Source: a virus
Taxonomy: Duplodnaviria; Caudoviricetes
Direction: 5' to 3' (one strand)
Virus record (IMG/VR): IMGVR_UViG_2830161386_000001
Location: 133,772 to 197,771 of that record
Length of the DNA: 64,000 nucleotides
Below, piece by piece: positions 12,918 to 45,083 of the stretch (position 1 is the first letter of the stretch; each line of letters starts with the position of its first letter). Under the pieces are notes generated by a model. The model made no database searches, was not told the DNA's origin, and saw only the letters and a program-made list of their open reading frames with translations. The position numbers were made by a program, and so were the translations under genes.

Positions 12918-13295
12918 TTAGGCAAGCCCGACGATTTGGATGTCATCGCGCCGGACTCGGACTTCAACTTTCGAGGCTCCGTCCGCGAGTTCGCCATAAG
13001 CCCTGTTGAGGATATCTCGCTGCTGGGCGTGAAGCCGGCGAACGACCTCTTTAAGCACGCGGTGGCCACGGTCTGGATCAACCTGTTCGTCGGTGATTAC
13101 GCCGTAGTAGCGCGCCTTCTGCGGGCTGTACCAGTCGATCACAATCTGGAGCGATTGCTCAAACGCCTCCGGCCCGAGCTGCTCCCAAGACCAGTCGGTC
13201 GACAGGCGCCACGTCAAGAGGTCAGACATCTTGTTTACAATCCGCCCGAGTCGGTCCTCGCGGACTGTAGGGTCGGTTTTCAAGACAGCATCCAT
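12918..13295 (-). CDS. Hypothetical protein with the C-terminal VEVRVRRDDIQI motif (dispersed relative of the 31.6-37 kb array)
   Basis: C-terminus SKVEVRVRRDDIQIVGLA matches the array motif; DPTV near the N-terminus. Confidence 0.7.
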   Translation of the reverse strand: MDAVLKTDPTVREDRLGRIVNKMSDLLTWRLSTDWSWEQLGPEAFEQSLQIVIDWYSPQKARYYGVITDEQVDPDRGHRVLKEVVRRLHAQQRDILNRAYGELADGASKVEVRVRRDDIQIVGLA

Positions 13296-25025: not shown

Positions 25026-25219
25026 GTAAAAACCAAAAGGCTAATTAGAGCCAAAAACACGACCGAAGCGATGAGCACGATAATCGCTCCAAAGGCCACT
25101 TCCCTGGCCTGCTCGTGCCCGGAAAACAGAGGGCTTCCGAGGGCTTCGGTGATAATGCGCCCGCCCTCAAACAGAAAGTACGCCGATAAAAACAAGCACA
25201 GAAATACGAAAAGCGTCAT
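25022..25219 (-). CDS. Small 2-TM membrane protein
   Basis: ATGA overlaps on both sides. Confidence 0.6.
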   Translation of the reverse strand: MTLFVFLCLFLSAYFLFEGGRIITEALGSPLFSGHEQAREVAFGAIIVLIASVVFLALISLLVFT

Positions 25220-28092: not shown

Positions 28093-31000
28093 CTAAAACA
28101 CGTGCACTTTTCCGGTCTCTCGGAGGCTACTTAGAGACTGAAGGTCCGGCTGGATGCCGCGGCCAAGCGAGACGGTTTCCTGGTAGTTTGTCTGCCCATC
28201 GCTAGCATTTCGCTTCGGGCCTTTGACCCACGCCTCCATCTCCCCCTCCGGAAGCTCAGAGAGCCGCTCTAAGGCGCTTCGGGCCGCCTCTGGGGAATCG
28301 GTCTCCACGCACGCGACTTGGCCGAAGCGGGCCGGAATTTGCCGCGCAGGCACCGCGTTTTCGACGGTGTAGCTTCCGGCGTACTCCCCTCGCACGTCGG
28401 TTTCCAGCACAAGCATCACGGCGGTGTCCGGCCGCAGGTGGTCCCCGATCTCCTCGTAAGTGCTGTCCCACATCGCGGCGGAGTCGGGAATCTCGTAGCC
28501 GGCGGTCTGGTAGGTCACCCACCACATCCGGTTTCCGTTGCTGGTGGTCTGCTCCTTTACCTTCATGACCGTCGCCAGCTCCAGGCGGTAGCGGGTGCCT
28601 TTGTAGGTATGCTCGTGGCCGCTTAGGTGCTGGGCGAGCCACTGGAAGTCGTCGGTCGGCGGGCCGCCTGTGTAGGTAGAGGCGACCTCCCGCTCTTGCT
28701 GAAAGCGGCTCTGGCGGGGAAACTCCGCGACGTCGTGGACCTGCGGGGCATCCGGCATCGACTTGCGGCTGCCCTGCTTGTAGTTCCGGCGCTTCCGGGC
28801 GTAGGTCAAGACCTTGTCGTGGGCTTCCATCATCGCGGCCCTCGACAAGTCGAAGTCGTCGAAGGCGCCGGCCTTGATCAGGGCCTTGACCGCCCGGGCG
28901 TTAGGCGTGCAGCGGCACAGGCACTCCATAAACGACTCGAAGGGGCCGCCCGTCTCCCGCTCCTCCAAAAACACCTGCGCCTCCTTGCCCACGTACTTAA
29001 TCGTGGAGAGGCCAAAGCGGACCTCCCCCTCATCCGTGGCGGCGAACTCCGCTTTTGACTTGTTGACCGAGGGGCGCTTTACGTCAACGCCCTCCCGGCG
29101 CAGCTCCCGGATCTGGTCGGCGCGGTCGCCGTCGTCGCTTTTCGATTGGACGATCGCGGCCTGAAAGGCCTCCCGGCAGTAGCACTTGAGGTAGGCCTGC
29201 TTGTAGGCCAGCGCCGCGTAGGACGAGCTATGTGCGCGGTTGAACGCGTAGTCTGCAAACTCCTCGATCTTCTGGAAAATCGTCTCTCCGAGGGAGCGGC
29301 CGTAGCCCTGCTCGATGCAGCCCTCGACAAACTTCTGTTTCTGCTCCATGAGGAGCTTCTCCTTCTTTTTGCCGATCGCCCGTCGCATGATGTCCGCCTG
29401 CCCGAGGGAGAAGCCGGCCACCTCCTGGCAGACCTTCATGACCTGCTCCTGAAAGACCATGATCCCGTAGGTGTCGCCGAGGATATCTGATACATCATCC
29501 TTGATCGCGTCGTGGATCGAGGGGTCGATGTAGATTGTCTCCTCTTCCCCGTGCATCCGGGCGATAAACTCGGGGATCTGCTGCATCGGGCCGGGCCTGT
29601 ACAGGGCGTTCATCGCCGCGATGTGGACGAATTCGGTCGGCTCCATCTGCTCTAAAAACTGGCGCATCCCGTCGCTTTCGAACTGGAAGACGCCCTTCGT
29701 GTCGCCGGTGGCAAAAATCTCCTCGTAGACCTTCGGGTCGTCCCTGGATTCTAGGTCTTCCTCGCTGATGTCGTAGCCGAGGTCCCTGGCCATTTCCAGG
29801 GCCCGGTCGATTTCACTCAGCGCCGAGAGGCCCAATACGTCAATCTTCAGGAGCCCCAGGTCCTCCAGCTGGTCCCCGTCAAACTGGGTCACGATGTGCT
29901 TTTCCCCGCTGCTTGTGAGGGCCTGGGTCGGGACGTGCTCGCTCGTCTCATCCGGCGTTACGATCACCGCCGCCGGGTGGCGCCCCGGGTGGCGGGCCAA
30001 GCCCTGGATGTCATCGGCCCACTTGCAGACTTTCTCAAAGCGCCCGTCGTCCTGGCGCTTGCGGCGGAGCTTGGGGCTCACTTCCAATAGGTCCTCGACG
30101 GTGCCGACGTCATGCTCTTTTTTGATCTCTTTGATCTCGTCGGCGACCTCGTCTTGCTCGGTCGGCTTGAGGCCGAAGACCCGGCTTACGTTCCGCACCG
30201 CCGCCTTGAGCTGAAACCGGTTGAACGTAATGGCCTCCGAGACGCGGTCCTCTCCGTACTTCGCCCGGATGTGCCGGATTACCTCCTCCCGGCGCTTGTC
30301 GTCGAAGTCGATGTCGATGTCCGGCATCGTCGTCCGGGCGTGGTTGAGAAAGCGGTCGAACAGCAGCCCGTGGGCCATCGGGTCCAGGTCGGTAATCCCG
30401 AGGCAATAGGTCACCATCGACCCGGCGGCCGAGCCGCGCCCGGGCCCGACGCGGATGCCCTGCGCTTTCGCCCACTGGACCACGTCGCTTACGATCAGGA
30501 AGTAGTCGTTGAAGCCCATCTCGTCGATCACGCCCAGCTCGTAGCGCATCCGGTCCTTGTGGGCTTGCGTGGCGCCCGGGTAGCGACGGCGGAAGCCCTT
30601 GGCGCACTCTTCGGTGAGGCGCTCTTTGGGCGTTTCCGCGGGGCCGAGGTCCGGAAACTCCGGGAAAAAATATTCCCCCTCCTCCATCGGGAGGCGGGCG
30701 CCGCAGCTTTCAGCAATCCGCATTGTGTTCTCCGCCGCCTGGGGAAACTCCTCGAAGAGGCTGATCATCTCCTCTGGCCCTTTGACGTGCATGTTTTCGT
30801 GGGCGAAGCGGCCCCCGTCCTCGTCGGTAAGCAAGACGTTGTCCCCCCCGCCCTCCGAGCGGGAGAGGCAGGTGCGGACCTTCTGGATCTCGTAGTCCTC
30901 CGGCCGGGCGTAGTGGCAGTCGTTGGCCGTAATGACCGGAATGTCGTACCTTTTCGCCAGGTACTGAACGAGGTCGTTCATCGTCTCCTCGTCCTCGATG

Positions 31001-31599
31001 CCGTGGCGGTGGGCCTCCAGGTAGAAGTCGTCCCCGAAGATATCGAGGTACTGCTCCGTAACCGAATGGGCCTTCTCGATCCGCTCCCGCTTGGAGAGGT
31101 GGCTAAACTGATCGTCCCCGAGGGCGAGCTTCGGCAAAATTCCCTGCACGCAGCTGGAGGTGGCGATGATGCCCTCGCTGTGGCGCCGGAGACGCTTAAA
31201 ATCAATGGTCGGGTTGTAATAGAACCCTTCATCTCCGGCCCAGCTCGCGAGCTTCATCAGGTTGTTTAGGCCCGCCTGCGTCTTGGCAAGCAAGACTTGG
31301 TGGAACCGCGTTTTCCGAACTTTATTTTCGCGGTCTGAGCAGGCAGCTCCCTTCTCCCGGAGCGACTGCACGTGGTCGAAGTCCTCGACGAAGTACGCCT
31401 CAATGCCCAAAATCGGCTTGATCCCCGCCGCGTCGCACGCCTCCTGAAACGAGGGCCAGGCGTAGCACACGCCGTGGTCGGTCACCGCCGCGGCGCTCAT
31501 CCCAAGCTCGCCTGCCCGCCCGGCAAGCTCTTTCGGGGACTGGACCCCGTCGAAGGTCGAGAGGGACGTGTGGTTGTGTAGGTGGGTAAAGCTGGCCAT
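28093..31599 (-). CDS. dnaE: DNA polymerase III alpha subunit
   Basis: PHP domain (HLHNHT, TDHG, ANDCHY), GPGRGSAAGS, PDIDIDF, KIDVLGL, GVFQFES, ALYRPGP, YAFNRAHS. Confidence 0.97.
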   Translation of the reverse strand: MASFTHLHNHTSLSTFDGVQSPKELAGRAGELGMSAAAVTDHGVCYAWPSFQEACDAAGIKPILGIEAYFVEDFDHVQSLREKGAACSDRENKVRKTRFHQVLLAKTQAGLNNLMKLASWAGDEGFYYNPTIDFKRLRRHSEGIIATSSCVQGILPKLALGDDQFSHLSKRERIEKAHSVTEQYLDIFGDDFYLEAHRHGIEDEETMNDLVQYLAKRYDIPVITANDCHYARPEDYEIQKVRTCLSRSEGGGDNVLLTDEDGGRFAHENMHVKGPEEMISLFEEFPQAAENTMRIAESCGARLPMEEGEYFFPEFPDLGPAETPKERLTEECAKGFRRRYPGATQAHKDRMRYELGVIDEMGFNDYFLIVSDVVQWAKAQGIRVGPGRGSAAGSMVTYCLGITDLDPMAHGLLFDRFLNHARTTMPDIDIDFDDKRREEVIRHIRAKYGEDRVSEAITFNRFQLKAAVRNVSRVFGLKPTEQDEVADEIKEIKKEHDVGTVEDLLEVSPKLRRKRQDDGRFEKVCKWADDIQGLARHPGRHPAAVIVTPDETSEHVPTQALTSSGEKHIVTQFDGDQLEDLGLLKIDVLGLSALSEIDRALEMARDLGYDISEEDLESRDDPKVYEEIFATGDTKGVFQFESDGMRQFLEQMEPTEFVHIAAMNALYRPGPMQQIPEFIARMHGEEETIYIDPSIHDAIKDDVSDILGDTYGIMVFQEQVMKVCQEVAGFSLGQADIMRRAIGKKKEKLLMEQKQKFVEGCIEQGYGRSLGETIFQKIEEFADYAFNRAHSSSYAALAYKQAYLKCYCREAFQAAIVQSKSDDGDRADQIRELRREGVDVKRPSVNKSKAEFAATDEGEVRFGLSTIKYVGKEAQVFLEERETGGPFESFMECLCRCTPNARAVKALIKAGAFDDFDLSRAAMMEAHDKVLTYARKRRNYKQGSRKSMPDAPQVHDVAEFPRQSRFQQEREVASTYTGGPPTDDFQWLAQHLSGHEHTYKGTRYRLELATVMKVKEQTTSNGNRMWWVTYQTAGYEIPDSAAMWDSTYEEIGDHLRPDTAVMLVLETDVRGEYAGSYTVENAVPARQIPARFGQVACVETDSPEAARSALERLSELPEGEMEAWVKGPKRNASDGQTNYQETVSLGRGIQPDLQSLSSLRETGKVHVF

Positions 31600-31637: not shown

Positions 31638-32156
31638 TTAGAGCGGGAACGCTGACTTCGGGAGCACAGAGCGGATCTCGATGCCGTCTCTCGTGACCTG
31701 CACGAGCACTTCGAGGGTGCCACGCTCATAGGCCTCTTCCATCTGGCGTTCGTACTCGAAAATAAACCCGTCGGCTGCTGCTTGAAAGGACTCCCCTAGC
31801 GTCCGAATAAGGCGGCACATGAGCCGCTGGCTCTCCTCCGGCGCCGACTCGTTCCACTTTTCATGACCGGACCAAACCACCTCTCGGCTTATTGGCTCCG
31901 GCACCTCCCCCCAAAGATCCCGGCAAACCCTCCACACGGTCCGTTCGGTTACGTGCTCTATAGCTCGCCACGGAGTGCCTGTCTCGTGAGTGTAATACTC
32001 TTGAGCGGTCTGCGACCATATTCGCTCGCGCATCATGCGCTCCCCATGACGCAGAATGTCGTGTGCCCAGTCGGGAACCTTCTCGTATTCTTTGCGCTCG
32101 GCCTCCGGCATCGTCTGAGGTAGAATTGGGGAAACAGAACTCGGCTTAATGCCCAT
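31638..32156 (-). CDS. Array member 11, shared C-terminal motif
   Basis: LEVLVQVTRDGIEIRSV. Confidence 0.8.
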   Translation of the reverse strand: MGIKPSSVSPILPQTMPEAERKEYEKVPDWAHDILRHGERMMRERIWSQTAQEYYTHETGTPWRAIEHVTERTVWRVCRDLWGEVPEPISREVVWSGHEKWNESAPEESQRLMCRLIRTLGESFQAAADGFIFEYERQMEEAYERGTLEVLVQVTRDGIEIRSVLPKSAFPL

Positions 32157-32208
32157 AAAGCAAAACGTTTATTTTTGAGTGGTCACGCTTGAAAGTCGGC
32201 TCTGAAAG

Positions 32209-32640
32209 TCACTCCTGAAAGACCGGCTTCTGGTGCGCGAGCGGCTCGTAGACGCTTTCGATCTCGATCGCCTCTCGCGTTACGCGCACCATCACCTCCA
32301 GTCTCGTCTCTTCGCGGCGCCGCTCTTCGATTGCTTCTTTGGCCGCCTTTTCGGCGCTCTTTCCGGCGTGCAGGATGATTCGGCTCATGAGCTTGTTGCC
32401 ACTGCCGACTCCCTCCTCGGAGATCGGCCACGGGACCCGGCCGAGGAGGTCCCGCGCTACCGACCGCACGCTCTTTTGGTCAATCTCATTTTTCGCAAGC
32501 ACAGAGGCAACGATCTGCTCGGTCTCCGGCTCTCGGGCGATAATCTGGTCGGTTCGCCGCATGACCGAAAAGTAGAGCTTCTCGACAATTTGCCAGGCCC
32601 AGTCTGGGTCCTGGTCGCGAAGTGGTCCAGTTGGCTGCAT
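32209..32640 (-). CDS. Array member 10
   Basis: LEVMVRVTREAIEIESV. Confidence 0.8.
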   Translation of the reverse strand: MQPTGPLRDQDPDWAWQIVEKLYFSVMRRTDQIIAREPETEQIVASVLAKNEIDQKSVRSVARDLLGRVPWPISEEGVGSGNKLMSRIILHAGKSAEKAAKEAIEERRREETRLEVMVRVTREAIEIESVYEPLAHQKPVFQE

Positions 32641-32686
32641 GGCACGGCTGTTTACAAGGTCAAGTTAATGATCAGGGATAGGTGGG

Positions 32687-33118
32687 TTAAAGCGAGATCC
32701 GGTGCGGCGTTACCCCCTCGATGGAAATTCCGTTTCGGGTCACCCGGACGTATACCTGCGTGGTCCCGCCGGGCCGCTGGAAGTCCATTTTCGCCTCGTG
32801 GACCGCTACGTCCACCACGTCTGGGCCGCTGTCGATGAGGCGAGCTAAAACCTCGGAGCTTGGGTCCATAAGCTCCGGCGGCACCGGGCGGTCCAGCCGC
32901 CGGGCTACCCCTCGTATGACCGACGCGGTAATGCTTTCGGGCCCCAGGTCCGGAATGTGCAGGTCAATGGCCGGAAGCGTCGGCTCCTGGAGGCCGTGGC
33001 CGGAAATTTCTCGCTGGGCGTGCTCGTAAACCGAGCGGTAGAGCTCCGATATGATCTCATGGGCCCACTCAGGGTCGTCGTCTCGGATTCGGGTGTCAAC
33101 GAAGGCTGGATAGTTCAT
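32687..33118 (-). CDS. Array member 9
   Basis: TQVYVRVTRNGISIEGV. Confidence 0.8.
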   Translation of the reverse strand: MNYPAFVDTRIRDDDPEWAHEIISELYRSVYEHAQREISGHGLQEPTLPAIDLHIPDLGPESITASVIRGVARRLDRPVPPELMDPSSEVLARLIDSGPDVVDVAVHEAKMDFQRPGGTTQVYVRVTRNGISIEGVTPHRISL

Positions 33119-33159
33119 ATCTGCGTTGTTGCGTCTGAATGTTGGCTGTAGGCGAGGTG

Positions 33160-33558
33160 CTACTCAGAGCGGTTTACCAGCCGCTGCTCGTAGTACTTGT
33201 TTCCCTGTGGCGTGCGGGGCGGGAGCACGCGCCGAATCTCCAGGCCGCGCCGCGTCACTTGAACCTCAACCCGAAATCGCCCCTCAAAGCGGTGGGGCCA
33301 GATCTGCTGCCCCAGATAACAAAGCCAGTCAAACGCGTCTTCCGGGGCGTATTTCCGGGGGCGAATCAGCTCCCGCTCGATCACAGACCGCCACTCCGGG
33401 TCGTCAAAAATAAGAGAGGCCGCCTCGTTGACGGCCTCTGTTCGCGGTTTCGACGGGGCCGCCGCCCGGATCGCAAGCATCGACCGGCGCAGCGGCTCCC
33501 ACAAAAGTTTCGTCAGCGGGTGGTCCCGCACGATTTGGTGGCTCGGAACGTGCTTCAT
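33160..33558 (-). CDS. Array member 8
   Basis: FRVEVQVTRRGLEIRRV. Confidence 0.8.
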   Translation of the reverse strand: MKHVPSHQIVRDHPLTKLLWEPLRRSMLAIRAAAPSKPRTEAVNEAASLIFDDPEWRSVIERELIRPRKYAPEDAFDWLCYLGQQIWPHRFEGRFRVEVQVTRRGLEIRRVLPPRTPQGNKYYEQRLVNRSE

Positions 33559-33609
33559 GAGACGGGGCGTTTTGCGGCAGGAAGCTATCGAAACTGTCGG
33601 CGCAGGCCG

Positions 33610-34041
33610 CTAGGAGGGCAGCCGTCCGGTATCGGGGCCGTTGAGCCCGCGCTCCGACTCAATCGAAATGCCGTTCCGCGTTACCCGCACCGTGACCCGC
33701 CGCTCCGACGTCCAAATCTCGCGGAGGCACTCCTCCAAGCGAGAATCGAGCCACCGAGCGAGGGCCGCGTTTAGGTCGTCCGGGTCGACCGCCCAGCCGG
33801 ACGTTTCGTGAAGGGCCTTCGCGAGGCTCTGGCGGAGGCTCGGCGCCGCCGGAGCAACCTCGTCTGCAAGTTGACTGGTGGACAGCGCTTTTCGGACCGA
33901 CTCCGGCGGCATGCCCCGGCGGACCGCCGGGTGTGATGCAAGGTACCTTTTGTACGTGTTGAAGGCGCGGCCCAAGAGCGCCTCTCCGTCTTGAAGGCTC
34001 ACGTCTTTGTAGCCTGGAAGAGTCTCGTTAGAGCGGGTCAT
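33610..34041 (-). CDS. Array member 7
   Basis: RRVTVRVTRNGISIES; start placed at MTRSNE. Confidence 0.78.
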   Translation of the reverse strand: MTRSNETLPGYKDVSLQDGEALLGRAFNTYKRYLASHPAVRRGMPPESVRKALSTSQLADEVAPAAPSLRQSLAKALHETSGWAVDPDDLNAALARWLDSRLEECLREIWTSERRVTVRVTRNGISIESERGLNGPDTGRLPS

Positions 34042-34498
34042 ACGTGGAAGGGTTGTCAATTCGATTTTTTTGAAGGAGGTCTGTGATTTCAATTCGGTCC
34101 CGAAAGACCCGGATCTCAACCGTGTCCACCCGGCTCCGAATAGTGGACTGGGCCTCGCTTATGATGTCGTCCCGTTTTTCGTAAAGCCGGGTTCGGAAAA
34201 GCGCCTCCGCGTCTTCCCACGCCTCAAGCATGGCTTGGCGCTGCTCTTCGCGGGTAGCGCGGGGCATAGCTTCGGCCGGGTCCTTGATCGCGCTGGACGC
34301 ACGGCCTAGTGCTTCGCCAAGCCACTCCTCCTCAAGCGCGTTGAGCGCCCTCCGAAACGCTTTGTCCGGCTTTCGCCCAATCGCCTGAGGGCTCCAGTCC
34401 AGAAAATAGTCGACGATTGCGTCCCGCCCGCCGGCGACCACTCGGTCGAGCTCCGGGTTCCGAATCAGCGGATTGTCATACGCGTGCATCAGACTCAA
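34028..34498 (-). CDS. Array member 6
   Basis: DTVEIRVFRDRIEITDL. Confidence 0.78.
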   Translation of the reverse strand: MSLMHAYDNPLIRNPELDRVVAGGRDAIVDYFLDWSPQAIGRKPDKAFRRALNALEEEWLGEALGRASSAIKDPAEAMPRATREEQRQAMLEAWEDAEALFRTRLYEKRDDIISEAQSTIRSRVDTVEIRVFRDRIEITDLLQKNRIDNPSTYDPL

Positions 34499-35003
34499 GC
34501 TTTTGGTCTAGGTGATTGCGAGAAGCGATGTTCGAGGCGCTTTGGTAGAGGTTCACGACCTCAATTCCATCGCGGCGAACGCGGATCTCAATGTGCTTCG
34601 CCTGGCTAATAAACAACTCCTTTGCCCGCCGGAGAATCGTTTCTTCTCGGTTTCCAATCTCGTCGGTCGCAAACCGAATTACGTCCATCATCGCCTGCTG
34701 GCGGTCCGCCGGGCGGGCTCGCGCCTCCTCGTCCCACATCTCCGGCACGACGCCGTATTCCCGGGCAAGATCGTCGATTTGCTGGTTGTAGTAGTTTTTC
34801 AGAATCTCTTGGAAGGAGCCCCGCCCAAGCGTTGACCACGAGCATTCGACGACCAGTCTCTGCACGACGTCCGAGCACGCGCACTCGACCATCTCGTAGT
34901 AGGCGTCCTGGTCGATCAGCGGGTCGTTCTCAACCGACGTTCGCAGGCTCTCGCACCGAAACTCGTCAAAATCCGGCATCAGCGTTCTTGTGGAGCTATA
35001 CAT
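34476..35003 (-). CDS. Array member 5
   Basis: KHIEIRVRRDGIEVVNL. Confidence 0.8.
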   Translation of the reverse strand: MYSSTRTLMPDFDEFRCESLRTSVENDPLIDQDAYYEMVECACSDVVQRLVVECSWSTLGRGSFQEILKNYYNQQIDDLAREYGVVPEMWDEEARARPADRQQAMMDVIRFATDEIGNREETILRRAKELFISQAKHIEIRVRRDGIEVVNLYQSASNIASRNHLDQKLESDARV

Positions 35004-35048
35004 AGGAAGAGAATTTAGTTTGAGAGTATAGTTCGGCAGTTGAGCCGC

Positions 35049-35462
35049 TCAGTAGTTGCAGCGGACATTCAAAATCTCGATGCCCGTTCGAGTGACTCGA
35101 ATGGTCACCTCATTCGCGCTTCGCAGAAGCCTGTCTTGGGCTTTCTCAATCACAGCCCGGCGGCTCTCGCTCACGCGAGCAACGATCTCCTTCCGGGCCA
35201 TAAAGAAGAGCTCGTTGAACCGATGGTCTGCTCGGCAAGTCTCTGTATCGGGCATCTCATCTGTGAGGCGTTCGTCCAGCCAGTGGTTTGGGCCGTAAAG
35301 CACATGTTCTGCCACGTCGTGGAAGGCATCAGTACCGATTTCGTCCAACCCGTAGCGAAACGCCAAGCGGTTGACGACCATGTCTATCGCCTTCCCCTCA
35401 AGGCGATTGGCGATGTTTTCGGCCGCTACGTAAATTGGCTCATCGAAGCTAGTAGTGCGCAT
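35049..35462 (-). CDS. Array member 4
   Basis: NEVTIRVTRTGIEILNV. Confidence 0.8.
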   Translation of the reverse strand: MRTTSFDEPIYVAAENIANRLEGKAIDMVVNRLAFRYGLDEIGTDAFHDVAEHVLYGPNHWLDERLTDEMPDTETCRADHRFNELFFMARKEIVARVSESRRAVIEKAQDRLLRSANEVTIRVTRTGIEILNVRCNY

Positions 35463-35922
35463 GTTGATTGAATTTGGTTGTTCGAGGTTCGGGGCGAGGT
35501 TGGGAGGGCTCTAGGCCAAACCCTTCGATCTCGATTCCGTGACGGCGGACGCGAACGTACACGTCGAGGCCGCCTTCAAGAATGTCTTCAAGCATGAACC
35601 CAAGCTCGCTGCGGAGATAGTCTTCCAGCTCCTCGCGGACCATCTCTTCTTTGCTCAGGCTGGGCATCTCCTCGTTGATTGGGCTGGACATTTCTTTTTC
35701 GGTCGGGTCGGGCCAGAGCGGCCCTTGAAACTCCCTGTACCTGTCGTGAAGGTAGATCATGTCCGCATCCGACAAGACCGAAATTTCGTTGTGAACAATT
35801 TCGCGGATCCGCTGCCACATCTCTCGGGGCGTGGACACCTCCCCCTCCGCAAGCGCCCATTTAAAACGGAGGGTCGATCGCCTCGTGATTTCGTCGAGGG
35901 GGTCGTCGCTCTGATAAATCAT
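35449..35922 (-). CDS. Array member 3
   Basis: LDVYVRVRRHGIEIEGF; start placed at MIYQSD. Confidence 0.78.
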   Translation of the reverse strand: MIYQSDDPLDEITRRSTLRFKWALAEGEVSTPREMWQRIREIVHNEISVLSDADMIYLHDRYREFQGPLWPDPTEKEMSSPINEEMPSLSKEEMVREELEDYLRSELGFMLEDILEGGLDVYVRVRRHGIEIEGFGLEPSQPRPEPRTTKFNQHAHY

Positions 35923-36481
35923 CTGATAAATCGTGGGGTTGCGTTTCGTATTGTGCGTCGAGTGCAGACTGAACCGCCTCTTCTTCCCCGTAAAACGCCT
36001 CGGCCAAGGGCTTCGGCAAGACGCCCTGGACCTCAATGCCGTCCCGCCGCACGGTGACCATCACCGTAAGAGGGCCCTCCAGGCGGCTTTCCCAAAACTC
36101 GTGCAGGCCTCTGTACGCCCAACAAAAGAGGTTCATGTAGGCGCACTCCAAGGGGCCTTCCGGCTTCCGGCCCGCAACCCATGCTTGATCTGGGTGAGGC
36201 TCGATCAGGCGGCCGTCGGCACTGATGTATTCTTTGAGCACGTCTCCATTCGGGACCGTTGCGTGTACCGTGTTGTTGATCATCCGGTCGACGGCCTGCC
36301 CGAGCTCTAGGTCCTCCCGCTCCAGAAGCACCCGCGCTATGTCCGTTCCGGTCACTTTTGAAAGCCGGTAGCAGAAGTCCTGCCGGACTTTCTGGTACAG
36401 AGAGCAAAACGGCTCGAATAGGTCGGCTTGCTCCGGATTGATATCTAAGATGTGTCGCCTGCGGTTTTTGTCACTGTTCAT
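35861..36481 (-). CDS. Array member 2
   Basis: LTVMVTVRRDGIEVQGV; start placed at MNSDKN. Confidence 0.78.
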   Translation of the reverse strand: MNSDKNRRRHILDINPEQADLFEPFCSLYQKVRQDFCYRLSKVTGTDIARVLLEREDLELGQAVDRMINNTVHATVPNGDVLKEYISADGRLIEPHPDQAWVAGRKPEGPLECAYMNLFCWAYRGLHEFWESRLEGPLTVMVTVRRDGIEVQGVLPKPLAEAFYGEEEAVQSALDAQYETQPHDLSDDLSERRPPRRNHEAIDPPF

Positions 36482-36986
36482 GGGTTGAAGGTCTTTGTGA
36501 GAGATAATGAGCGATGGGCCGGGGGCGCGCCCCGAGGCACAAGATCGAGTCGCGGCGGACCTGGACGGCAATCACAAGTGGCTCCTCCCGCACCTGGCCC
36601 GCCCACTGCCGCAGGTCCCACACGACCGCTGCAAGGAAGTGCGTTTTCGAGGCCGCCGCCCCCGAGGACCTTGGCCACTGGACTCGGCCCCACACCTGCT
36701 CGACCACCTGGGTGGGCGGCCGGCCCACCTCGTCTACAAAGCGGGCGGCGTCGTACGGAGAGTACGGGCACATAGAAAAAGCGAGGTCCAGGAACGCCTG
36801 AACCTCGCTTTCCGGGTCGAGCCCGTTTTTTGCCCACCGCCGGGCCATCCGGCGGCGCGCTTCGCTGAGGAGAGGGTGAACTTTGTGGGTATCAGGCCAC
36901 CTAGTTCCGGATTGCTCCGCCCCGGGCCTTTTGCCGGCGCCGGAGGGCGGATTGGAACTGGTCGCGGTCGATCTCTTCGTATGCAT
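36471..36986 (-). CDS. Array member 1
   Basis: LVIAVQVRRDSILCLG (degenerate motif); start uncertain. Confidence 0.7.
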   Translation of the reverse strand: MHTKRSTATSSNPPSGAGKRPGAEQSGTRWPDTHKVHPLLSEARRRMARRWAKNGLDPESEVQAFLDLAFSMCPYSPYDAARFVDEVGRPPTQVVEQVWGRVQWPRSSGAAASKTHFLAAVVWDLRQWAGQVREEPLVIAVQVRRDSILCLGARPRPIAHYLSQRPSTHEQ

Positions 36987-37287
36987 CGGAATGGCGACTT
37001 ATTCGAAAGTACGACGGGGCGCCGTGGGAGCGCTTCTCCATGAGCGCGCAGCTGGGGGCGCCGTACATCGCCTGGCCCATCACGCCGGGCGAGAGGTCGT
37101 GAAGCACGACCAGAAGCGAGGTCTGCGGGTGCTCGGCGCGTTGCCACTTATACCCGCACACCTGGCAAAAGCGCGTCTCAATCGGGGCGTTGACAAAAAG
37201 GTTGGAGAAGGGGTCCGGCACGGCGTTCAGCTTCGGGGCCGTCTCGAAGCTGGACACCCCTTCAGATTTGCAGCAAGGGCATCGCAT
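36901..37287 (-). CDS. Zinc-ribbon protein heading the array operon
   Basis: CPCC...CQVCGYKW; first gene after the promoter-like motif. Confidence 0.6.
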   Translation of the reverse strand: MRCPCCKSEGVSSFETAPKLNAVPDPFSNLFVNAPIETRFCQVCGYKWQRAEHPQTSLLVVLHDLSPGVMGQAMYGAPSCALMEKRSHGAPSYFRISRHSDAYEEIDRDQFQSALRRRQKARGGAIRN

Positions 37288-37356
37288 AACTTGAGTTTAT
37301 TTAAGCAAAAGGGGCGAAAAGAAGGTCGGCAGAAGGCAATGGCCTCCTTCTGTGTT

Positions 37357-37385: not shown

Positions 37386-37429
37386 GCTTCAGTCCCAGCT
37401 GGGACTGGCGCCTATGCGTTGGGCCGCTT

Positions 37430-40400
37430 TTAAAACTCCCACCGGTCCGGGTCAAGTCCCTTGTCGAAGCCCTTGCCGTACATGTAGGCGCTTACCGGGC
37501 TCGTCCCCCGGATCTCCGCCTCGTGCCCTTCCTGGGCAGACGTGGTCAGCTCCCGCTTCAGGTTTTGGAAGTTCATCTTCGAGAGCCAATTTTCCCCGTG
37601 GAAGGGCACCTTCCCAACTGGCGTAAGCTGCCCCTCCGCAACGACCGGATCCTCATCGTCCCCGGCCTGCTGGTTAAACGCCTCGATTTTGCCGGACTGC
37701 ACGTTCTCGCCGGGCACAAAATCCGAATCCCCCGGGTCCCGAACGCGGGCGAAGTCCGTCATCGCGGCCAGCGTCGTCTCCGCGCCCCGGCGGTTGATGC
37801 CGCCGATCTCGTTAAAGATGGTGTGCAGCTCTCGCGTCAGGTAGTCGCGGGTTTCCTCCAGCCCCTTTGTTTTCTGCATCTCATCGGGGTCGAAGTGGCC
37901 CGCTTCGGTGATCTTCTCTCCCGCCTCCAGCTCCGCGCCCGGCTCGATTTTATCTCGGATGCGGCGCTCCGGCGGAATTCGGGTAGAGCGCGTCTCGCCC
38001 TTGTCTTTGGAGGTGTAGGTGACGTCGGTGCCGACCTTCCCGCCCTGCGCGAACACGTCTTCCGTTTCCTCAATCTCGAAGGATTCGCCGGGCTCCCCCT
38101 CCGCGATGTGGGCCTTGAAGTTCGGAGACTTTAGCTGCACGATCTCTTGAAAGCGGTCGAACGAAGGGGCGGTTTTGTCCGCCGAACCAGTTTCGTGCAT
38201 CGCCTTGAGCGTGAGCTTCGTGGAGGCCTCAATGATGCCCTGCCCCTCCCGGACGCCGACGTTTTCCCCGAGATCCGGCATGTTTCCGTTTTCCGTTCGA
38301 CCATAACAAGCCGCGCAGACCCCCTCCTCCGACTCGCAAGTCAGCGGGGAGCGCACCTTCACGGTCTCCTGCCCGGCCCGCTCCATCGCCGCGAGCTTCG
38401 AGCCGTCAATCTCCTCGCCGCTTTCGGCCAGGAACCGCCCGTTGAGGTCGTCGGTGTTGAGGCTCCCGCCCTCTTTGAGCGGAATCTCCTTCCCCGCCGT
38501 CGTGCCGCAGTCCCGCTCGGTCACGACCAGGTCTTGGCTTCCGGCGATAATCTGTTTCCCGAGGTAGCCCGGCTTTGAGGTCTCGACCGACCGGTCTCGA
38601 AGCCCCATAAGGGCCCCGTGTTGCTGGAGGTAGTACTCTCCGCCCTTGAGCCCCCGGTTCAAAGAGTTTTTGACCGGCCGGGGCACCCGGTTTTTGTGCA
38701 CGTCCTTCACCATGCCGAACGTGCCGAGCAGCTGCCGGATCTGGTTCGGGCTCGACCGGGAGCCGACCTGCATCATGCGGACCAGCGGGTTGTCCCCGTC
38801 TCGCTCTTTGATCTCTTTCTCCATTCGCTTCATCGTGCCCATGATGGTCTTGTCCTCCTCGCCCCCTTCGCCTTTCTCGACGGTCACGTCCGTCCCCATA
38901 TTCAGGTCGATTTCCGCCTGCTGGTAGTCTGCTTCATCCGGCTCTTCTTTGCCCTTCTCCTCGGCGATAATCTGGGCGCGGTCGCCGATGTACTGTTCGG
39001 ACTGTTCGTAGTGCTTCTCCGCGAGGCTGTCCTCCGGCTTTACGTCGTCGAACCCGACCGTAAAGCCCTTCTTCGTCGCGTGCTGGGAGCCGAGCATCGA
39101 GAGCTTGTGGGAGATGTCCGCGTACTTTTCGGGAAAGCGGCGCACGAGCCCCTCCAGAAAGACGTCCTCCATGCCCTCGTCATCGAGGTCCAGGCCCCGC
39201 ATGCTAATGTCCTTGTCCGGGTGGTCGCTTTGCAGCTCCTCCATGTATTTGTTCAGGCCCATCTGCCCCTCAGTGCCCTTCCGGATCGCGTCGTCGATCA
39301 GGGCCCATCCCGGCGTCCACTGCTCCGCGTCTCCGTCCTCGCCTTGAATCTTAAACGGCTGGTGGGGCTTCACGTCGCCGGTGTTGTACTTGCGGATCAG
39401 GTCGTTCTTGTCGGTTATGTCCGGCTCGTTTTTCGGCTCCGGGTCCCCGTCGGCTACAGGGCTGCTTCCGGCCACCTGCGACAGGTCGTGCAGCCCCAAG
39501 AGCTGGCTGTGGTCCGGGTGCACAAGCAGCTTTTTTGAGCCGGGAGCGCGGAGATTCCGGCTTGGCTTCATGCTGTGGGCCTCGTTTACTGCCGCGTCGG
39601 TCACCGGCACGTGGGCTGACATTGTATTGTGCACGATAATCCCCGGCCCCACGCAGAACACGTGATCGCCTTCTACGGTCATGTCTGCTACCACCGGCTC
39701 TTGCTCGACCTGCTCAACTGAGCGGACCGTATAGGCTTCCTGAGTGGGTGGCAGACCGAGCTTTTCTGCCACCTCACGACCAGACCCGAATACCGAATCG
39801 TGCACGTTGTCAAGCACGTCTTCACCCGCCTCAAGGTCTTGGGGCGCAACCTCCTCTCCGCCGACCATCATCGAGTGGTCGCTCGTCACGCGAACGGCAT
39901 AGCCGCCCCTAGTTTCAACCTCATAGGTTGGTTTGTCCGTCTGGTGGACCGTCAGCTCATTAACCGACACCCACTCCCCGTTGCTATTGAGCGTTTGAAC
40001 ACTTGACACGAACGGCAACCTGAGGTTTTCCGACGGAACCTCTCCAAATATCTGGGTGATTAACTCTTTAATTTGGCCTTCCCAAAGCCCATTGGCCATA
40101 CGAAGCACGACAGGCGTGTTGAGCGACACGGAATCCCCGTCAAAATCTCCGCCCTGAAACGGGGCGACGACCTGGTTGGGGACCCGGATTGCCTTCTCGG
40201 TGTCGTTGGACTCCGGATCCTCCGAAATCAGCTTCGGCTCGTGGGCCGTGACGTTGTGCTGCCACCACGACGGGTCCCGGTTTAGAAGCACCGGGCGGTC
40301 CTCCATTGCCTTCCGCAGCTCTTTGCGGGCCTTGTCGGTGCGGTCCTCGTACTCTTCCTTCGCGTCGACCGCGCTTCCAAGCTCTTTCGAGAGCTCGTTC

Positions 40401-43400
40401 CGGACAAACGGCTCGTAAATCGTCCACGCCATCTCCTCCGGCAGGCCGACCTCGTCGACCCCGAGGGCGTCGGTGCCCTCAATCTGTTTGAGCCCGGAGG
40501 GAATGATCGTCGACCGGCCAGAGAGGTCCTGTTTCTTTTTCATGACTTTCCGCTGGGCGTAGCCGCCCTTTGGGCCCTGCGATTCGTCGTCCTCGTCGGT
40601 AAAGTTTTGGTCCCCGGCCACGGCGCCGCCGCCGGCAATCTGGTCCATGATCGACTTGGCCTTGATGTTGCCCCGCGGGCTGGAGCCGTCCCCAAAGAGG
40701 GCCCCGAGGTCCTGCATCAGCCCTTTTCGGTCCTGCTTGATCTCTTCCTCCCCGAGGTAGTTTTCAACCGACTGATTTAGCTGCTCCTTCCCGTGAAGCA
40801 CCTCCCCGTAGAGCTTGTTCGTGGGCTGGCGGTGAATCTTCCCGTCCCCGCTGAGAAGCGGGCGGCGGTACTTGCCCGGCATCACCGGCACCTTGCTCAA
40901 CATAAAGGCGTCCTCCGGCGCCACGTCGTTTTCCTGGAGGTTGCCCAAAAACTTGAGCTTCGACTTGTACATATCCGCCCGCTCGGCCTTGAAGTCCCCC
41001 TGCATGTAGTCTTCGGCCTTTGACCGGACCTCCTCCATCGTTTTGTCCACGTCAATCGTGGAGAGAAGCTCCTTGAGGTCCTCCCCGCCGCTGTAGGTTT
41101 TGTCCCCGATCTCCACGGAGGCGTCTCCGATGTAGAGGTTCTTTACGTCCTTCTGCGTCATGTTCGACGTGGTGCGGGTCTTCCCGTTTGCCTTGTTGAT
41201 GCGGGGAGTCACGTCGTGGGACACCCGGAGCCCGTCTTCCAGGGCGTACTGAAGGCCCTTCTTGAATAGCGGGTTCGGGACCGGCTCCGGAAGCTCGATG
41301 TGGTTCCAGTTCTCCGCCCCCTCCCCGACGAGGTTCGGGTCGAAAAGCCCCTTCGTGACCGCTTTTTGCCGCCCGTACCCGCGGTCATGCTGCTTCGGGG
41401 TCTGGTAGCCGCCGGGGTTTTCGATCTCCCCCGCGCTTTTTCTCTGGATGTCCTTATCTGTCATCGGCGTGAGCTTAATCGCGTCCTTCTGGTCCTCCTC
41501 GACACTTACCCCGAGGCTTTCGATCATCGATTTAAACTTGTCAAACGAGAAGGGCGTGTCCGCCACCCGGGGCTTCCGGCCTCCCTTGACGAAGTCGTAC
41601 CAGTAGTCCTGATTTTCCGTCCCCTTGATCTGGGCCATCTCCGAGAGGTTTGCCCGGGCGTTGTGGCCGATCATGCTGTGGACGGTCAGGTTGTCCATGC
41701 TCGCCCCGCCGACGGGCTGTTCGTCCATGTCGTACCCCTCGTTGACCCCGCGGGCGTCGAACTTCTTGTTCAGCATGTGCTTCAGCTTCGCGACGTACTG
41801 CTTCCCGATGTTGACGTCGGGAATCGTCTCTCCGGTCTCCGGGTGCTCGAAGTCCTCCTGCACGTCGATGCCCAGCTCCTCAAGCTCCTGGTTTATGTCC
41901 TCCCAGTCGGTCCGGTTGTCGAAGTTTTTGACCTTGTAGGTTTCTCCCTTCTTGTCCGCGACTTTCCCGGCCGCGTTTTCGAAAATCTGCCCCACATTCG
42001 CCCGCGAGGGGACCCCGTGCGGATCGACGAGGAGGTCCGGCACCTTCCCGTCTCGCTTTCGCTTCGGCATTTTGTCCTCCGGAAGCACCTTGGAGGTAAT
42101 GCCCTTGCCCCCGGCGCGCACGGTAATCTTGTCTCCCTCTTTAAATTTCTCTTCCGTCTTCACGTACACCCGGACGCCGGCGGTATTGCCCTCCCCGTCT
42201 TTGTCCGTTTCCACGCGGGTGACGACGCCCTTGTCCGGCTTATTCCAGTAGACCGACCGGTCCCGGGCGTCGATCCCAAACTCCTTAAACGTCTGCTTGA
42301 GCTGGCGCGTCAGGTCCGGGTCGTTGCGCAGGTTTGCCTTTCCAATTGCGGTCACGAGGGCGTCTCCCTCCTCGACGGTCGCGCCCTCTTGAATAATGCC
42401 ATCGGCCCCGAGGGTGTCGCGGTTCAGGTCCCCGAGCTTCCCTCGGTCGCGCATGTGGGTGGAGTAGATGTCCAGGCCCTGCTCGTCGTTTGGCTCCGCC
42501 TCGTAGACTTTCTCGTAGACGTGCTCGGAGGTGAGCTTCTCGGCCCCCTTTTCCGACATGACCATACTGTCCTCGTAGTTGAAGCCGGACATCGGCATGT
42601 AGGCGACGTCGAGGTTTTTCCCGACCGCGAGCTTCCCCTCCTCGTCGGTGTAATTGTTGGTCGTCATGAGATCCCCTTCCTCCACCTGGTCTCCGGGGTC
42701 GACCTTGACAGAGTGGTCGATAAAGCCGCCTTGATTGAGCGGAAGGTCGTTAAAAAGCGGGTACTGCTTCTCCTCCCCCTCGTCGGTCTCGACGACAATG
42801 GCCTCCTCTTGCACTTCTTTCACCGTACCTGGCTCCTCGGCGGTCACGTTGTAGCGGTGGCCGAGTCGCTTTGAGAAGGTCTCTCCGGTTTCATCTACCG
42901 GGTCGACCAGAGGCGACTCCGCGTCTTTCAGGGAAACCCCCTGGGCCATCTGCCTCGCCCCCATAATCGCCCGCGGGCCGGAGTTGTGGTGCACAAACGG
43001 GACGATGTTGGTCCCGTCGGCCAGCATGTCGGTCATGTCCGGCAGGACGTACCGAACTTCCTCTTCGGGAACTTGCTTGACCTCGTTTCCGACGCCGGCG
43101 TAGACTTCCTCTTGCTTCGGCTCGTAGGTTTCTCCGCCCTCGGTTTCCTCCCGCTGGAAGTCGTCTGCAAACCCGATATTTCCCTCCGCGATCTCCTGGG
43201 CGGAGACGATCCGCTTCTCTCCCTGCTTCCGGTCGTAGACCTCACGCTGGACCTCCCCGTCCTCCCCGATGCGGGCGCCTTTTGCCAAAGGCATCGAGCG
43301 GCCCGGACTGCCGGTTGGGGTGTTGACCACGTCAATGAGGCCAAGCCGGGAGGGGTGCAGCTCGATGTTCTCTGGCTGGATCGCGTGCTCGGACTGGATG

Positions 43401-44596: not shown

Positions 44597-45083
44597 GTTC
44601 GGAAATGTCGAAGTAATTAGCAGGCGGTCGGTGGGCGACGCGCCGACTGTCGTCAATCTGTATCGATAGCTCGGGGGTCTTCTCTTTCTTTTGCACGTAG
44701 GAGAGGGCGCTGGGGCGAATCCGGTTGACCCGCGTGTACCAGTAGTCGTAGGTGTTGCGGTGGGAGTCCCGGCCCGACGCGATGGACACAAGCGGCACGC
44801 CGCCCTCCGCCATCAGGTCCACGATCGGGTCGCTTTCCCCCTCCATCGCCGTGGTCACGAGGCGGGCCGCTGCGTTGAGGCGGTAGGAAGAGCGCCGCTT
44901 CAGCATGTACTCTTTGATTTTCTGGCCGCCCGGGTTGTCGTCCAGGTACCGGTACACCCGCATTGTCAGGCGGTCCGCCTCCTTGTCGGACTTGGTGTAC
45001 CGCTTGATCACGTCGCGAAGCGCGGAGCGCTCCTCCAAAGACTCCTCGACAACACTGGCCGGATCGGGAAGCTCGCTACTCAT
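44571..45083 (-). CDS. Hypothetical protein overlapping the RNAP start
   Basis: Overlaps both neighbours. Confidence 0.65.
   Translation of the reverse strand: MSSELPDPASVVEESLEERSALRDVIKRYTKSDKEADRLTMRVYRYLDDNPGGQKIKEYMLKRRSSYRLNAAARLVTTAMEGESDPIVDLMAEGGVPLVSIASGRDSHRNTYDYWYTRVNRIRPSALSYVQKKEKTPELSIQIDDSRRVAHRPPANYFDISEHELASNAE

What the first reader, a model, noticed from the sequence alone, without database searches (positions are those of the whole stretch)
31638..37287. Tandem array of 11 divergent genes sharing a C-terminal VxV(R/Q)VxRxGIxI module, between RNAP and dnaE
Seen: eleven consecutive 130-210 aa ORFs have largely dissimilar helical bodies, but all carry the same two-strand motif near the C-terminus (VLVQVTRDGIEI, VMVRVTREAIEI, VYVRVTRNGISI, VEVQVTRRGLEI, VTVRVTRNGISI, VEIRVFRDRIEI, IEIRVRRDGIEV, VTIRVTRTGIEI, VYVRVRRHGIEI, VMVTVRRDGIEV, IAVQVRRDSIL). 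Many also have a (D/N/H)P(L/I) or PxW N-terminal cap. The block follows one promoter-like motif and a zinc-ribbon gene. Inference: a constant docking or oligomerisation hairpin on variable specificity domains. This could be a mix-and-match adaptor family for a shared partner (the phage RNAP, a protease, a packaging/injection machine) or a hetero-oligomeric anti-defence panel. I do not recognise the family.
Basis: partly seen in the sequence, partly recalled or inferred. Interest (0 to 1): 0.9.

Follow-up and report, generated by a model that had tools for sequence, protein, structure and literature searches.

The report
Phage gene family sharing one beta-hairpin
A 198-kb virus from salt lakes carries fifteen small genes whose bodies differ widely but which all keep the same short two-strand hairpin at one end, a new protein family whose shared hairpin probably serves as a common contact point, though its job is still unknown.

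Summary
All 11 tandem minus-strand genes (31638-36986) carry the motif [VI]x[VI][RQ]V[TR]RxxI[ESD][IV]; m11 is the weakest member. A 12th copy lies at 12918-13295. Three more genes elsewhere in the same 197,771-bp complete virus genome carry the hairpin at their N-terminus, in tandem directly upstream of the large terminase. Conservation is at protein level: synonymous codons are scrambled, and pN/pS is 0.19 against a sister strain. With the hairpin removed, the bodies fall into two related clusters plus eight singletons. AlphaFold2 models m08 as six helices plus a C-terminal hairpin (pLDDT 86.6), with no convincing structural match. Pfam, PHROGs, NCBIfam, PADLOC and PDB sequences give nothing. 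A scan of 1.84 billion representative proteins found 24 hits. Twenty-three are small proteins resembling individual members; the named ones are from Salinibacter ruber assemblies. My best reading is a lineage-specific multigene family with a constant, position-independent association hairpin on diversified helical domains. The scan's earlier notes hold no look-alike on other DNA.

The parts
31638..32156 (-). m01, 172 aa, hairpin VLVQVTRDGIEI (core 31665-31709). An alternative start at 32111 gives 157 aa, as in the database orthologue P0003.
32209..32640 (-). m02, 143 aa, hairpin VMVRVTREAIEI. Body is related to m01 and m03.
32687..33118 (-). m03, 143 aa, hairpin VYVRVTRNGISI
33160..33558 (-). 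m04, 132 aa, hairpin VEVQVTRRGLEI. Basic (pI 10.1). Body is a singleton.
33610..34041 (-). m05, 143 aa from the ATG at 34041 (the open frame runs to 34119). Hairpin VTVRVTRNGISI. Body is a singleton.
34028..34489 (-). m06, 153 aa from the ATG at 34489. Hairpin VEIRVFRDRIEI. Overlaps the m05 start by 14 nt.
34476..35003 (-). m07, 175 aa, hairpin IEIRVRRDGIEV. Body is related to m06, m08 and m12. Orthologues occur in Salinibacter ruber assemblies.
35049..35462 (-). m08, 137 aa, hairpin VTIRVTRTGIEI. AlphaFold2 model: helices 8-36, 44-56, 61-69, 73-76, 80-99, 101-115; strands 118-124 and 127-134.
35449..35922 (-). m09, 157 aa from the ATG at 35922. Hairpin VYVRVRRHGIEI. In all four runs laid, contigs replace a 91-nt stretch (35664-35756) with 43 other letters, a net 48 nt that keeps the frame.
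35861..36481 (-). m10, 206 aa from the ATG at 36481. Hairpin VMVTVRRDGIEV, followed by a 55-aa tail that overlaps the m09 start.
36471..36986 (-). m11, 171 aa, or 125 aa from the Met at 36848. Hairpin IAVQVRRDSILC. It is the most divergent and weakest member.
12918..13295 (-). m12, 125 aa, a dispersed 12th C-terminal-hairpin member (VEVRVRRDDIQI, four residues from the end). Its body is closest to m07.
36901..37287 (-). Cys-rich, zinc-ribbon-like gene heading the block, 128 aa with CxCC...CxxC. No family hit. Found only in near relatives. Its link to the family is by position only.
37330..37352 (-). Stem-loop followed by a T-rich run, in the 142-nt gap between the RNAP gene and the zinc-ribbon gene. 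It looks like a terminator by eye; the terminator scan did not list it.
37392..37405 (.). Copy of the genome's dispersed palindrome GTCCCAGCTGGGAC, in the same gap.
37430..44791 (-). Context: fused beta-beta' RNA polymerase, 2453 aa, with an intein-like insert. Lies directly upstream of the block.
28093..31599 (-). Context: DnaE-type DNA polymerase III alpha, 1168 aa. Lies directly downstream, 38 nt after m01.

Best explanation
This is a lineage-specific multigene family of a complete ~198-kb tailed virus from hypersaline waters. The likely host is Salinibacter, judged from named relatives.

Fifteen small proteins per genome share one amphipathic beta-hairpin of about 15 residues: [VI]x[VI][RQ]V[TR]RxxI[ESD][IV]xx[VL]. 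Twelve proteins carry it at the C-terminal end of a five-to-six-helix body. Three carry it at the very N-terminus of other bodies.

Shown: the hairpin is kept by selection on the peptide while the bodies have diverged beyond recognition. The 11 array genes lie tightly packed or overlapping between the virus's RNA polymerase and DNA polymerase genes.

Inferred: the hairpin is a position-independent association element. Its hydrophobic face (V1, V3, V5, I10, I12) pairs with another sheet. Its constant polar residues (R4, invariant R7, E11) make the same contact in every member. Every member would therefore self-associate, mix with other members, or dock on one common partner, while the variable helical body gives each member its own target.

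The most likely role is a set of co-expressed early or middle effector or adaptor proteins for take-over of the cell or control of the virus's own transcription and replication. This last step is inference only.
For: - Motif reality: (see observation check).
- Conservation: in 39 distinct hairpin cores from 79 proteins, V5 is 39 of 39, R7 39 of 39, I10 37 of 39 and R4 30 of 39.
- Protein-level selection: only 245 of 663 codon pairs coding the same residue use the same codon, and mean nucleotide identity of the 36-nt core is 0.57. pN/pS is 0.19 over eight genes against sister strain L001.
- Body divergence: 6 of 66 body-only profile pairs reach >= 90% probability, and 0 of 132 reversed controls exceed 2.4%.
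- Position independence: three genes at genome 106378-107696 carry the hairpin 3-14 residues from the N-terminus. Their bodies match nothing: 0 of 36 comparisons with the 12 C-type families above 1.6%, and 0 of 3 among themselves above 0.2%.
- Structure: the m08 model has pLDDT 86.6 and pTM 0.75, six helices, then strands 118-124 and 127-134.
- Operon-like packing: gaps of 38-52 nt or overlaps of 11-62 nt, one sigma-70-like match inside the block, and terminator-like sites no more frequent than in shuffles.
- Largest paralogue family in the genome: BLASTP clusters of 5 and 3, against at most 3 for any other family among 211 ORFs.
- Retained as distinct orthologues in relatives, and present in four independent metagenome runs.
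Against:
- In the monomer model the hairpin already has pLDDT of about 86-90. It may simply pack on its own helical body and be a structural core rather than a contact site. The coordinates could not be inspected.
- The N-terminal-type model is unreliable (pLDDT 46, hairpin region 30-34).
- The R4-E11 pair and the turn residues could be conserved for hairpin stability alone.
- No partner is identified. The genome has no sliding clamp or sigma-70 region 2 match.
- m11 is not separable from background by the motif HMM.
Confidence: 0.45

Rival explanations
1. The hairpin is only the slowest-evolving structural core of one fast-diverging paralogue family made by tandem duplication. It packs on each protein's own helices, and there is no shared partner or oligomer. 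The members have unrelated or redundant functions.
For: - Neighbouring genes are the most alike (m01-m02-m03; m06-m07-m08), as tandem duplication predicts.
- All C-type members share length, an N-terminal Pro helix cap and the hairpin position at residues 97-150.
- The hairpin is confidently placed in a monomer model.
Against: - The same hairpin, including its polar residues (RVTRNGIDIE), heads three proteins with unrelated bodies at the opposite terminus.
- Arg7 is invariant in 39 of 39 cores, which is hard to explain by packing against ten different body classes.
Confidence: 0.25
2. The hairpin is a capsid-loading tag. Tagged proteins are packed into the head and injected with the DNA, like the T4 internal proteins, which share only a capsid targeting sequence. 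The variable bodies would be first-strike effectors.
For: - The three N-terminal-hairpin genes lie inside the morphogenesis block, directly upstream of the large terminase (phrog_675, E 1.4e-47).
- The T4 precedent of diverse proteins sharing only a targeting sequence comes from passages read in PMC3012670.
- Unchecked notes of this scan describe cargo polyproteins next to these genes.
Against: - The 12 C-type genes sit between RNAP and DnaE, not with the head genes.
- I saw no constant cleavage-like motif beside the hairpin in the flanking residues printed.
- No presence/absence variation was seen among close relatives where contigs bridged, unlike what I recall of the T-even internal-protein loci.
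- There are no virion proteomics.
Confidence: 0.15
3. The hairpin is a nucleic-acid-binding beta-ribbon. The family would be DNA- or RNA-binding regulators or packaging factors, possibly reading one common site such as the dispersed palindrome TCCCAGCTGGGA.
For: - Arg sits on the polar face and at the hairpin tip.
- The proteins are Arg-rich, 12-19 Arg each.
- The position is next to the polymerase genes for the array and next to the terminase for the N-type genes.
- The palindrome occurs 13 times in the window.
Against: - A conserved acidic residue (E or D in 27 of 39 cores) lies on the same polar face.
- Most members are acidic overall: 10 of 15 have pI below 6.
- There is no hit to any DNA-binding family.
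Confidence: 0.08
4. The members are alternative specificity or accessory subunits of the virus's own single-chain RNA polymerase. The hairpin docks by strand addition, and the body selects promoters or templates.
For: - The block lies immediately downstream of the RNAP gene.
- No sigma-70 region 2 match exists anywhere in the genome.
Against: - Twelve to fifteen specificity factors is far more than a 198-kb genome should need.
- There is no similarity to sigma or to known phage RNAP-binding proteins.
- The three N-type genes sit in the packaging module.
Confidence: 0.07

Closest known systems
T4-type internal proteins (IPI, IPII, IPIII and their variable relatives) with the shared capsid targeting sequence
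   Same: Both are sets of otherwise dissimilar small phage proteins that keep one short terminal module in common. [quoted passage not shown]
   Different: - From recall, the T4 tag is an N-terminal peptide of about 10 residues that the head protease removes. Here the module is a 15-residue beta-hairpin, C-terminal in 12 genes and N-terminal in 3.
- There is no sequence likeness, and I saw no constant cleavage-like motif beside the hairpin.
- Most of these genes lie with the polymerase genes, and packaging into the virion is untested.
T7 Ocr (gene 0.3 protein), DNA-mimic anti-restriction protein
   Same: The helical body of the m08 model aligns to four Ocr entries at Z 5.3-5.9, with 86-93 residues aligned at rmsd 4.1-4.7 A. 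A BFVD 'Protein 0.3' model matches at probability 0.51. Both are small helical phage proteins.
   Different: - The scores are within the tool's stated background for helical proteins (Z under 8).
- From recall, Ocr has no beta-hairpin and is extremely acidic.
- The members here have pI 4.7-10.2 and net charge -14 to +8, no more acidic than the genome median pI of 5.09.
Small terminase subunits with a C-terminal beta-barrel (P22 gp3, Sf6 gp1; from recall)
   Same: Both have a helical body followed by a beta-hairpin and a flexible tail. In those terminases, hairpins from many subunits form a ring-closing barrel, which is a model for how a short hairpin can drive oligomerisation. The three N-type genes occupy the position just upstream of the large terminase.
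   Different: - No terminase family hit for any member.
- No small terminase chain appears among the top 50 structural rows.
- In the genes next to the terminase the hairpin is N-terminal.
- Twelve copies lie far from the packaging genes.
Short clamp-binding or PIP-type motifs shared by many replication proteins (from recall)
   Same: A short module found at either terminus of unrelated proteins tethers them to one hub.
   Different: Those are linear peptides, not a folded hairpin. No sliding-clamp gene was found in this genome.

Membership tests
Any described protein family (Pfam, PHROGs, NCBIfam, PADLOC, PDB sequences) | Significant profile match over the protein | tested here: not met
   - Pfam: 11 members scanned, best E 0.0038, each listed family matched by one member. 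In the re-scan of eight C-type and two N-type proteins, all five families listed scored 14.1-18 bits, below their curated cut-offs of 25-31.2.
- PHROGs: best E 0.073.
- NCBIfam: best E 0.0019, single members only.
- PADLOC: 0 families.
- PDB sequences: best E 0.13.
T4 internal-protein / capsid-targeting-sequence system | Shared short N-terminal targeting peptide | tested here: not met
   The shared module is C-terminal in 12 of 15 genes and is a predicted two-strand hairpin. What the T4 tag looks like is recalled, apart from the passage read.
T4 internal-protein / capsid-targeting-sequence system | Tag removed by the head protease at a constant site | tested here: inconclusive
   I saw no constant motif in the eight residues before the hairpin or after it in the flanks printed. 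The protease specificity of this virus is unknown.
T4 internal-protein / capsid-targeting-sequence system | Proteins present inside the virion | not testable with these tools
   This needs virion proteomics.
Ocr-type DNA mimics | Strongly acidic surface mimicking DNA | tested here: not met
   pI 4.7-10.2 and net charge -14 to +8. The genome median pI is 5.09.
Ocr-type DNA mimics | Shared fold | tested here: inconclusive
   Z 5.3-5.9 with 86-93 residues aligned at rmsd 4.1-4.7 A. This is within the stated background.
Small terminase subunit | Match to a terminase small-subunit family or structure | tested here: inconclusive
   No PHROG or Pfam hit for the C-type or N-type proteins. None is listed among the top structural rows.
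Small terminase subunit | Gene directly upstream of the large terminase | tested here: met
   This holds only for the three N-type genes at L002 10378-11696, upstream of TerL at 8407-10248. It does not hold for the 12 C-type genes.
Sigma-70 family | Region 2 domain | tested here: not met
   PF04542 gives no match in the whole genome at E <= 0.01, while the controls rang in 10 of 14 genomes. No member hits it in Pfam.

The most novel reading that the evidence does not exclude
The hairpin is a universal assembly tag that works at either end of a protein. Through it, fifteen different proteins of one virus would join one beta-sheet structure. That structure could be a mixed ring or barrel built from paralogues, or a docking site inside the capsid through which they are packed and injected. 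This would be a cargo-loading or hub-docking system with a folded hairpin tag, unlike the linear peptide tags known from T4 and encapsulins.
Probability: 0.2. Interest if true: 0.8.

Novelty: new variant of a known kind. Interest (0 to 1): 0.58.

Why it matters
If the hairpin is a self-contained association tag, it is a compact natural module of about 15 residues that works at either terminus. It could explain how a large virus organises a panel of effector proteins, and it could be borrowed as a tagging device. The family also makes up about 7% of the genes of a virus that is widespread in hypersaline metagenomes (20 runs from 8 studies listed, one run a possible source). Its function is therefore a real gap in understanding virus-host biology in salterns. 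If the hairpin is only a conserved structural core, the finding is an ordinary expansion of orphan genes in a large phage.

Tried and rejected
Family searches that found nothing:
- Pfam, PHROGs, NCBIfam, PADLOC and PDB-sequence searches gave nothing usable.
- The DksA_N hit of m06 covers 23 residues at 18 bits, below the cut-off of 27, and I treat it as noise.
- The ESM Atlas gave no usable hit.

Structure searches:
- Foldseek against PDB and BFVD found 0 matches at E <= 0.001.
- VIA-align wide gave a best Z of 7.0, and the second look a best of 6.7. Both are within the stated background.
- No small terminase chain was among the 50 rows shown in either VIA search.
- The DNA-mimic idea was rejected on charge.

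Searches for relatives:
- Nothing in IMG/VR. The 21 pattern matches agree with my own rough chance estimate.
- Nothing in GTDB genome contigs, INPHARED phages or PLSDB plasmids.
- The metagenome scan gave one 3.9-kb near-identical contig.
- No listed sequencing run holding the array is on record as RNA, so nothing can be said on expression.
- Parts of the array without contig cover in single runs are not interpreted.

Other steps:
- The AlphaFold2 model of the N-type protein n1 was too poor to use (pLDDT 46).
- P0026, a 689-aa secreted-looking repeat protein with five VTVSVTRSDIG-like stretches at E 7.3e-4, is treated as a chance or analogous hairpin. It was dropped from the motif count.
- The first all-against-all BLASTP used a greedy two-strand gene set and lost the family to longer antisense ORFs. 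It was redone on minus-strand ORFs.
- A CsrA-like reading of the N-terminal 'MLKIEIRVTRNG' was considered from recall and dropped. No Pfam hit was found, and the rest of the protein is predicted helical in a low-confidence model.
- Two literature searches found no paper on this virus or family. The one Salinibacter paper opened, PMC12064560 (passages read), concerns a different virus.
- Supplementary files were not consulted.

Full report
WHAT IS THERE. The window is the last 64 kb of a single-contig virus record of 197,771 bp. The record has direct terminal repeats and is rated 100% complete. Minus-strand ORFs cover 93% of the genome.

Between a fused beta-beta' RNA polymerase gene (37430-44791; Pfam Rpb2_6, E 3e-60, plus Rpb1 domains and an intein-like insert) and a DnaE-type polymerase (28093-31599) lie a Cys-rich 128-aa gene and eleven small genes, all on the minus strand. 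With ATG starts they encode 132-206 aa. They are separated by 38-52 nt or overlap by 11-62 nt. The start codons have no Shine-Dalgarno-like sequence upstream.

THE MOTIF IS REAL.
- All 11 genes carry [VI]x[VI][RQT]VxRxx[IL] close to the C-terminus.
- A regex found 16 matches in the window's six frames. Twelve are in minus-strand genes. Fifty shuffles gave a mean of 1.66 and a maximum of 6.
- An HMM of the 11 C-termini was scored against all 2,896 stop-to-stop ORFs of the genome. It separated 14 ORFs (E <= 1.2e-4) from the rest, whose best was E 0.25.
- Leaving each member out of the model in turn, 9 of 11 were recovered at E <= 6.2e-4. m06 scored E 0.12, and m11 scored E 0.53 and was not recovered. 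m11 is therefore a member mainly by position, size and the regex.

THE FAMILY IS LARGER.
- A 12th C-terminal copy lies at 12918-13295.
- Outside the window, at genome 106378-107696, three tandem genes carry the same hairpin at their N-terminus: MLKIEIRVTRNGIDIES, MSIYEPQLIVQVSRTGVDV and ...FEIQIRVTRNGIDIERV.
- These three lie directly upstream of the large terminase (phrog_675, E 1.4e-47).
- A looser regex found 20 hits genome-wide. Fifteen are these genes and five are on the plus strand. Twenty shuffles gave a mean of 2.85.

SELECTION ACTS ON THE PEPTIDE.
- Among 39 distinct hairpin cores from 79 proteins (15 from this genome and 64 from databases, P0026 dropped), V5 and R7 are invariant, I10 is 37 of 39 and R4 is 30 of 39.
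- Codons are scrambled. Only 245 of 663 same-residue codon pairs use the same codon, and mean nucleotide identity of the core is 0.57. This is not a DNA repeat or a recent gene conversion.
- Against the near-identical contig L001, eight genes give pS 0.057 and pN 0.011, a ratio of 0.19. These are coding genes under purifying selection.

THE BODIES.
- With hairpin and tail removed, BLASTP links only m01-m02-m03 and m07-m12.
- Profile comparison of the 12 orthologue groups gave 6 of 66 pairs at >= 90% probability. These define the clusters {m01, m02, m03} and {m06, m07, m08, m12}.
- m04, m05, m09, m10 and m11 stand alone. Reversed controls reached at most 2.4% in 132 comparisons.
- The three N-type bodies match none of the 12 families (0 of 36 above 1.6%) nor each other.
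- All C-type members still share overall length, a Pro column near the N-terminus (11 of 11) and the hairpin position. Neighbours are the most alike. Tandem duplication followed by strong divergence is therefore the simplest history for the array.

STRUCTURE.
- AlphaFold2 on m08 with a 15-row alignment gave pLDDT 86.6 and pTM 0.75. The model has helices 8-36, 44-56, 61-69, 73-76, 80-99 and 101-115, then strands 118-124 and 127-134.
- From that strand register I infer, without seeing coordinates, that V1, V3, V5, I10 and I12 form one hydrophobic face. R4 and E11 would sit opposite each other on the other face, with the invariant Arg at the turn.
- Foldseek found nothing at E <= 0.001 in PDB or BFVD.
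- VIA-align gave a best Z of 7.0 (wide) and 6.7 (second look), which is background for helical proteins.
- T7 Ocr recurs at Z 5.3-5.9. The members are not unusually acidic: pI 4.7-10.2 against a genome median of 5.09. I do not file them as DNA mimics.
- The N-type model (n1) has pLDDT 46 and is not usable.

DISTRIBUTION.
- No described family matches.
- The word-indexed search of 5.8 billion proteins found 6 hits.
- The exhaustive HMM scan of 1.84 billion representatives found 24 hits. Twenty-three are small proteins of 87-176 aa, each resembling one particular member. One is a borderline 689-aa repeat protein.
- More distant orthologues, about 25-55% identical by my reading of the alignments, exist for m02, m03, m04, m06, m07 and m08.
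- Orthologues of m01, m02, m03, m05, m08, m09 and m11 are recorded on contigs with the same two longest lengths, 21,110 and 31,145 bp.
- m07-like and m06-like proteins with adjacent accession numbers occur on 25-28-kb contigs of Salinibacter ruber assemblies. With the lack of Shine-Dalgarno sequences and 61% G+C, this points to Salinibacter as host by inference.
- The array's sampled words occur in 20 listed runs of hypersaline lake, brine and saltern metagenomes from 8 studies. One run may be the source of this record.
- Contigs of four runs laid on the array gave depth in 29 or 30 of 30 bins each. Differences were mainly point changes. One replacement in m09 was seen in all four runs: 91 nt replaced by 43, a net 48 nt. 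No member was lost where contigs bridged.
- Nothing was found in IMG/VR, GTDB contigs, INPHARED or PLSDB.

CONTEXT.
- All genes run from the right end of the genome leftwards.
- Upstream of the RNAP lie a ParA-type ATPase (47831-48622; AAA_31, E 2e-41) and, on the other strand, a protein with a replication-initiator RPA domain.
- Downstream of DnaE lie a DUF1540 protein and RecA.
- The 142-nt gap between the RNAP and the Cys-rich gene holds a copy of the dispersed palindrome (37392-37405) and a stem-loop followed by a T-rich run (37330-37352).
- Inside the block the scan found one sigma-70-like match, against a shuffle mean of 1.2. It found 6 terminator-like sites, against a shuffle mean of 7.7. 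The block looks like one transcription unit that continues into dnaE. This is an inference.
- The genome has no sliding-clamp or sigma-70 region 2 match.

HOW IT MOST LIKELY WORKS.
- Shown: one hairpin peptide is conserved on at least ten body classes at either terminus, under purifying selection, in co-located genes.
- Inferred: a 15-residue hairpin cannot fold alone, and it is conserved regardless of what it is attached to. Its constant face therefore most likely meets a constant surface, either other hairpins (self or mixed oligomers by sheet extension) or one shared partner. The helical bodies would supply the individual functions.
- I put this at 0.45.
- Rivals: structural core only (0.25), capsid-loading tag in the manner of the T4 internal proteins (0.15; PMC3012670 passages), nucleic-acid-binding ribbon (0.08), and RNAP accessory factors (0.07).
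- The retention of distinct orthologues of six members in distant relatives argues against a freely exchangeable accessory panel. So does the lack of any gene loss where contigs bridged in four metagenome runs.

NOVELTY. The family has no described relative in sequence or, as far as these searches reach, in fold. The general idea of a short shared module on diverse phage proteins is known. A folded hairpin used at either terminus would be a new variant of it. Function remains untested because co-folding and the contigs of relatives were not available. By-sequence look-up of this scan's earlier notes found no look-alike on other DNA.

Noticed in passing
genome 106378-107696 (locus L002 10378-11696), outside the window: Three tandem genes (about 116, 164 and 142 aa) begin with the same hairpin and lie directly upstream of the large terminase, where a small terminase gene is usually found. 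None hits a terminase family.
   Followed up: partly
window 37430-44791: A single 2453-aa ORF fuses RNA polymerase beta and beta' domains. It carries an intein-like insert (Pfam Intein_splicing, residues 1604-1722, 34.4 bits, just under the 35.8 cut-off).
   Followed up: partly
window 47831-48622 (-) and 48898-50751 (+): A ParA-type ATPase and a divergently placed protein with a replication-initiator (RPA) domain suggest a plasmid-like maintenance module in a virus genome with terminal repeats.
   Followed up: partly
window 2264, 7026, 11498, 14691, 14964, 16759, 21359, 26666, 37393, 48655, 50719, 54652, 59796: There are thirteen exact copies of the 12-mer palindrome TCCCAGCTGGGA in the window. 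One lies in the gap between the RNAP gene and the array.
   Followed up: no
window 4570-5283 (genome 138341-139054): Three adjacent small ORFs (about 70-85 aa) are BLASTP paralogues of one another. They form the only other family of three in the genome.
   Followed up: no
window 35664-35756 (in m09): Contigs in all four metagenome runs laid replace 91 nt with 43 other letters, a net change of 48 nt that keeps the frame. It lies in the linker of m09.
   Followed up: partly
database protein P0014 and its cluster (m06-like, 163 aa): Some sources name this 163-aa protein 'CHAT domain-containing protein'. No Pfam scan here supports that name for its window relative m06, so it is probably a mislabel.
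   Followed up: no
window 26692-27126 and 25216-26271: A DUF1540-domain protein (E 1e-7) and a full RecA (E 5e-84) follow DnaE on the same strand.
   Followed up: no
window 36901-36986: The Cys-rich gene and the longest reading of m11 overlap by 86 nt. Database gene calls of m11 orthologues start at the internal Met (125 aa), which would remove m11's Pro cap.
   Followed up: partly
window 3459-3532, 53269-53341, 55601-55688: ARAGORN calls three tRNA genes on the minus strand: Lys-TTT, Ser-ACT and Glu-CTC.
   Followed up: no
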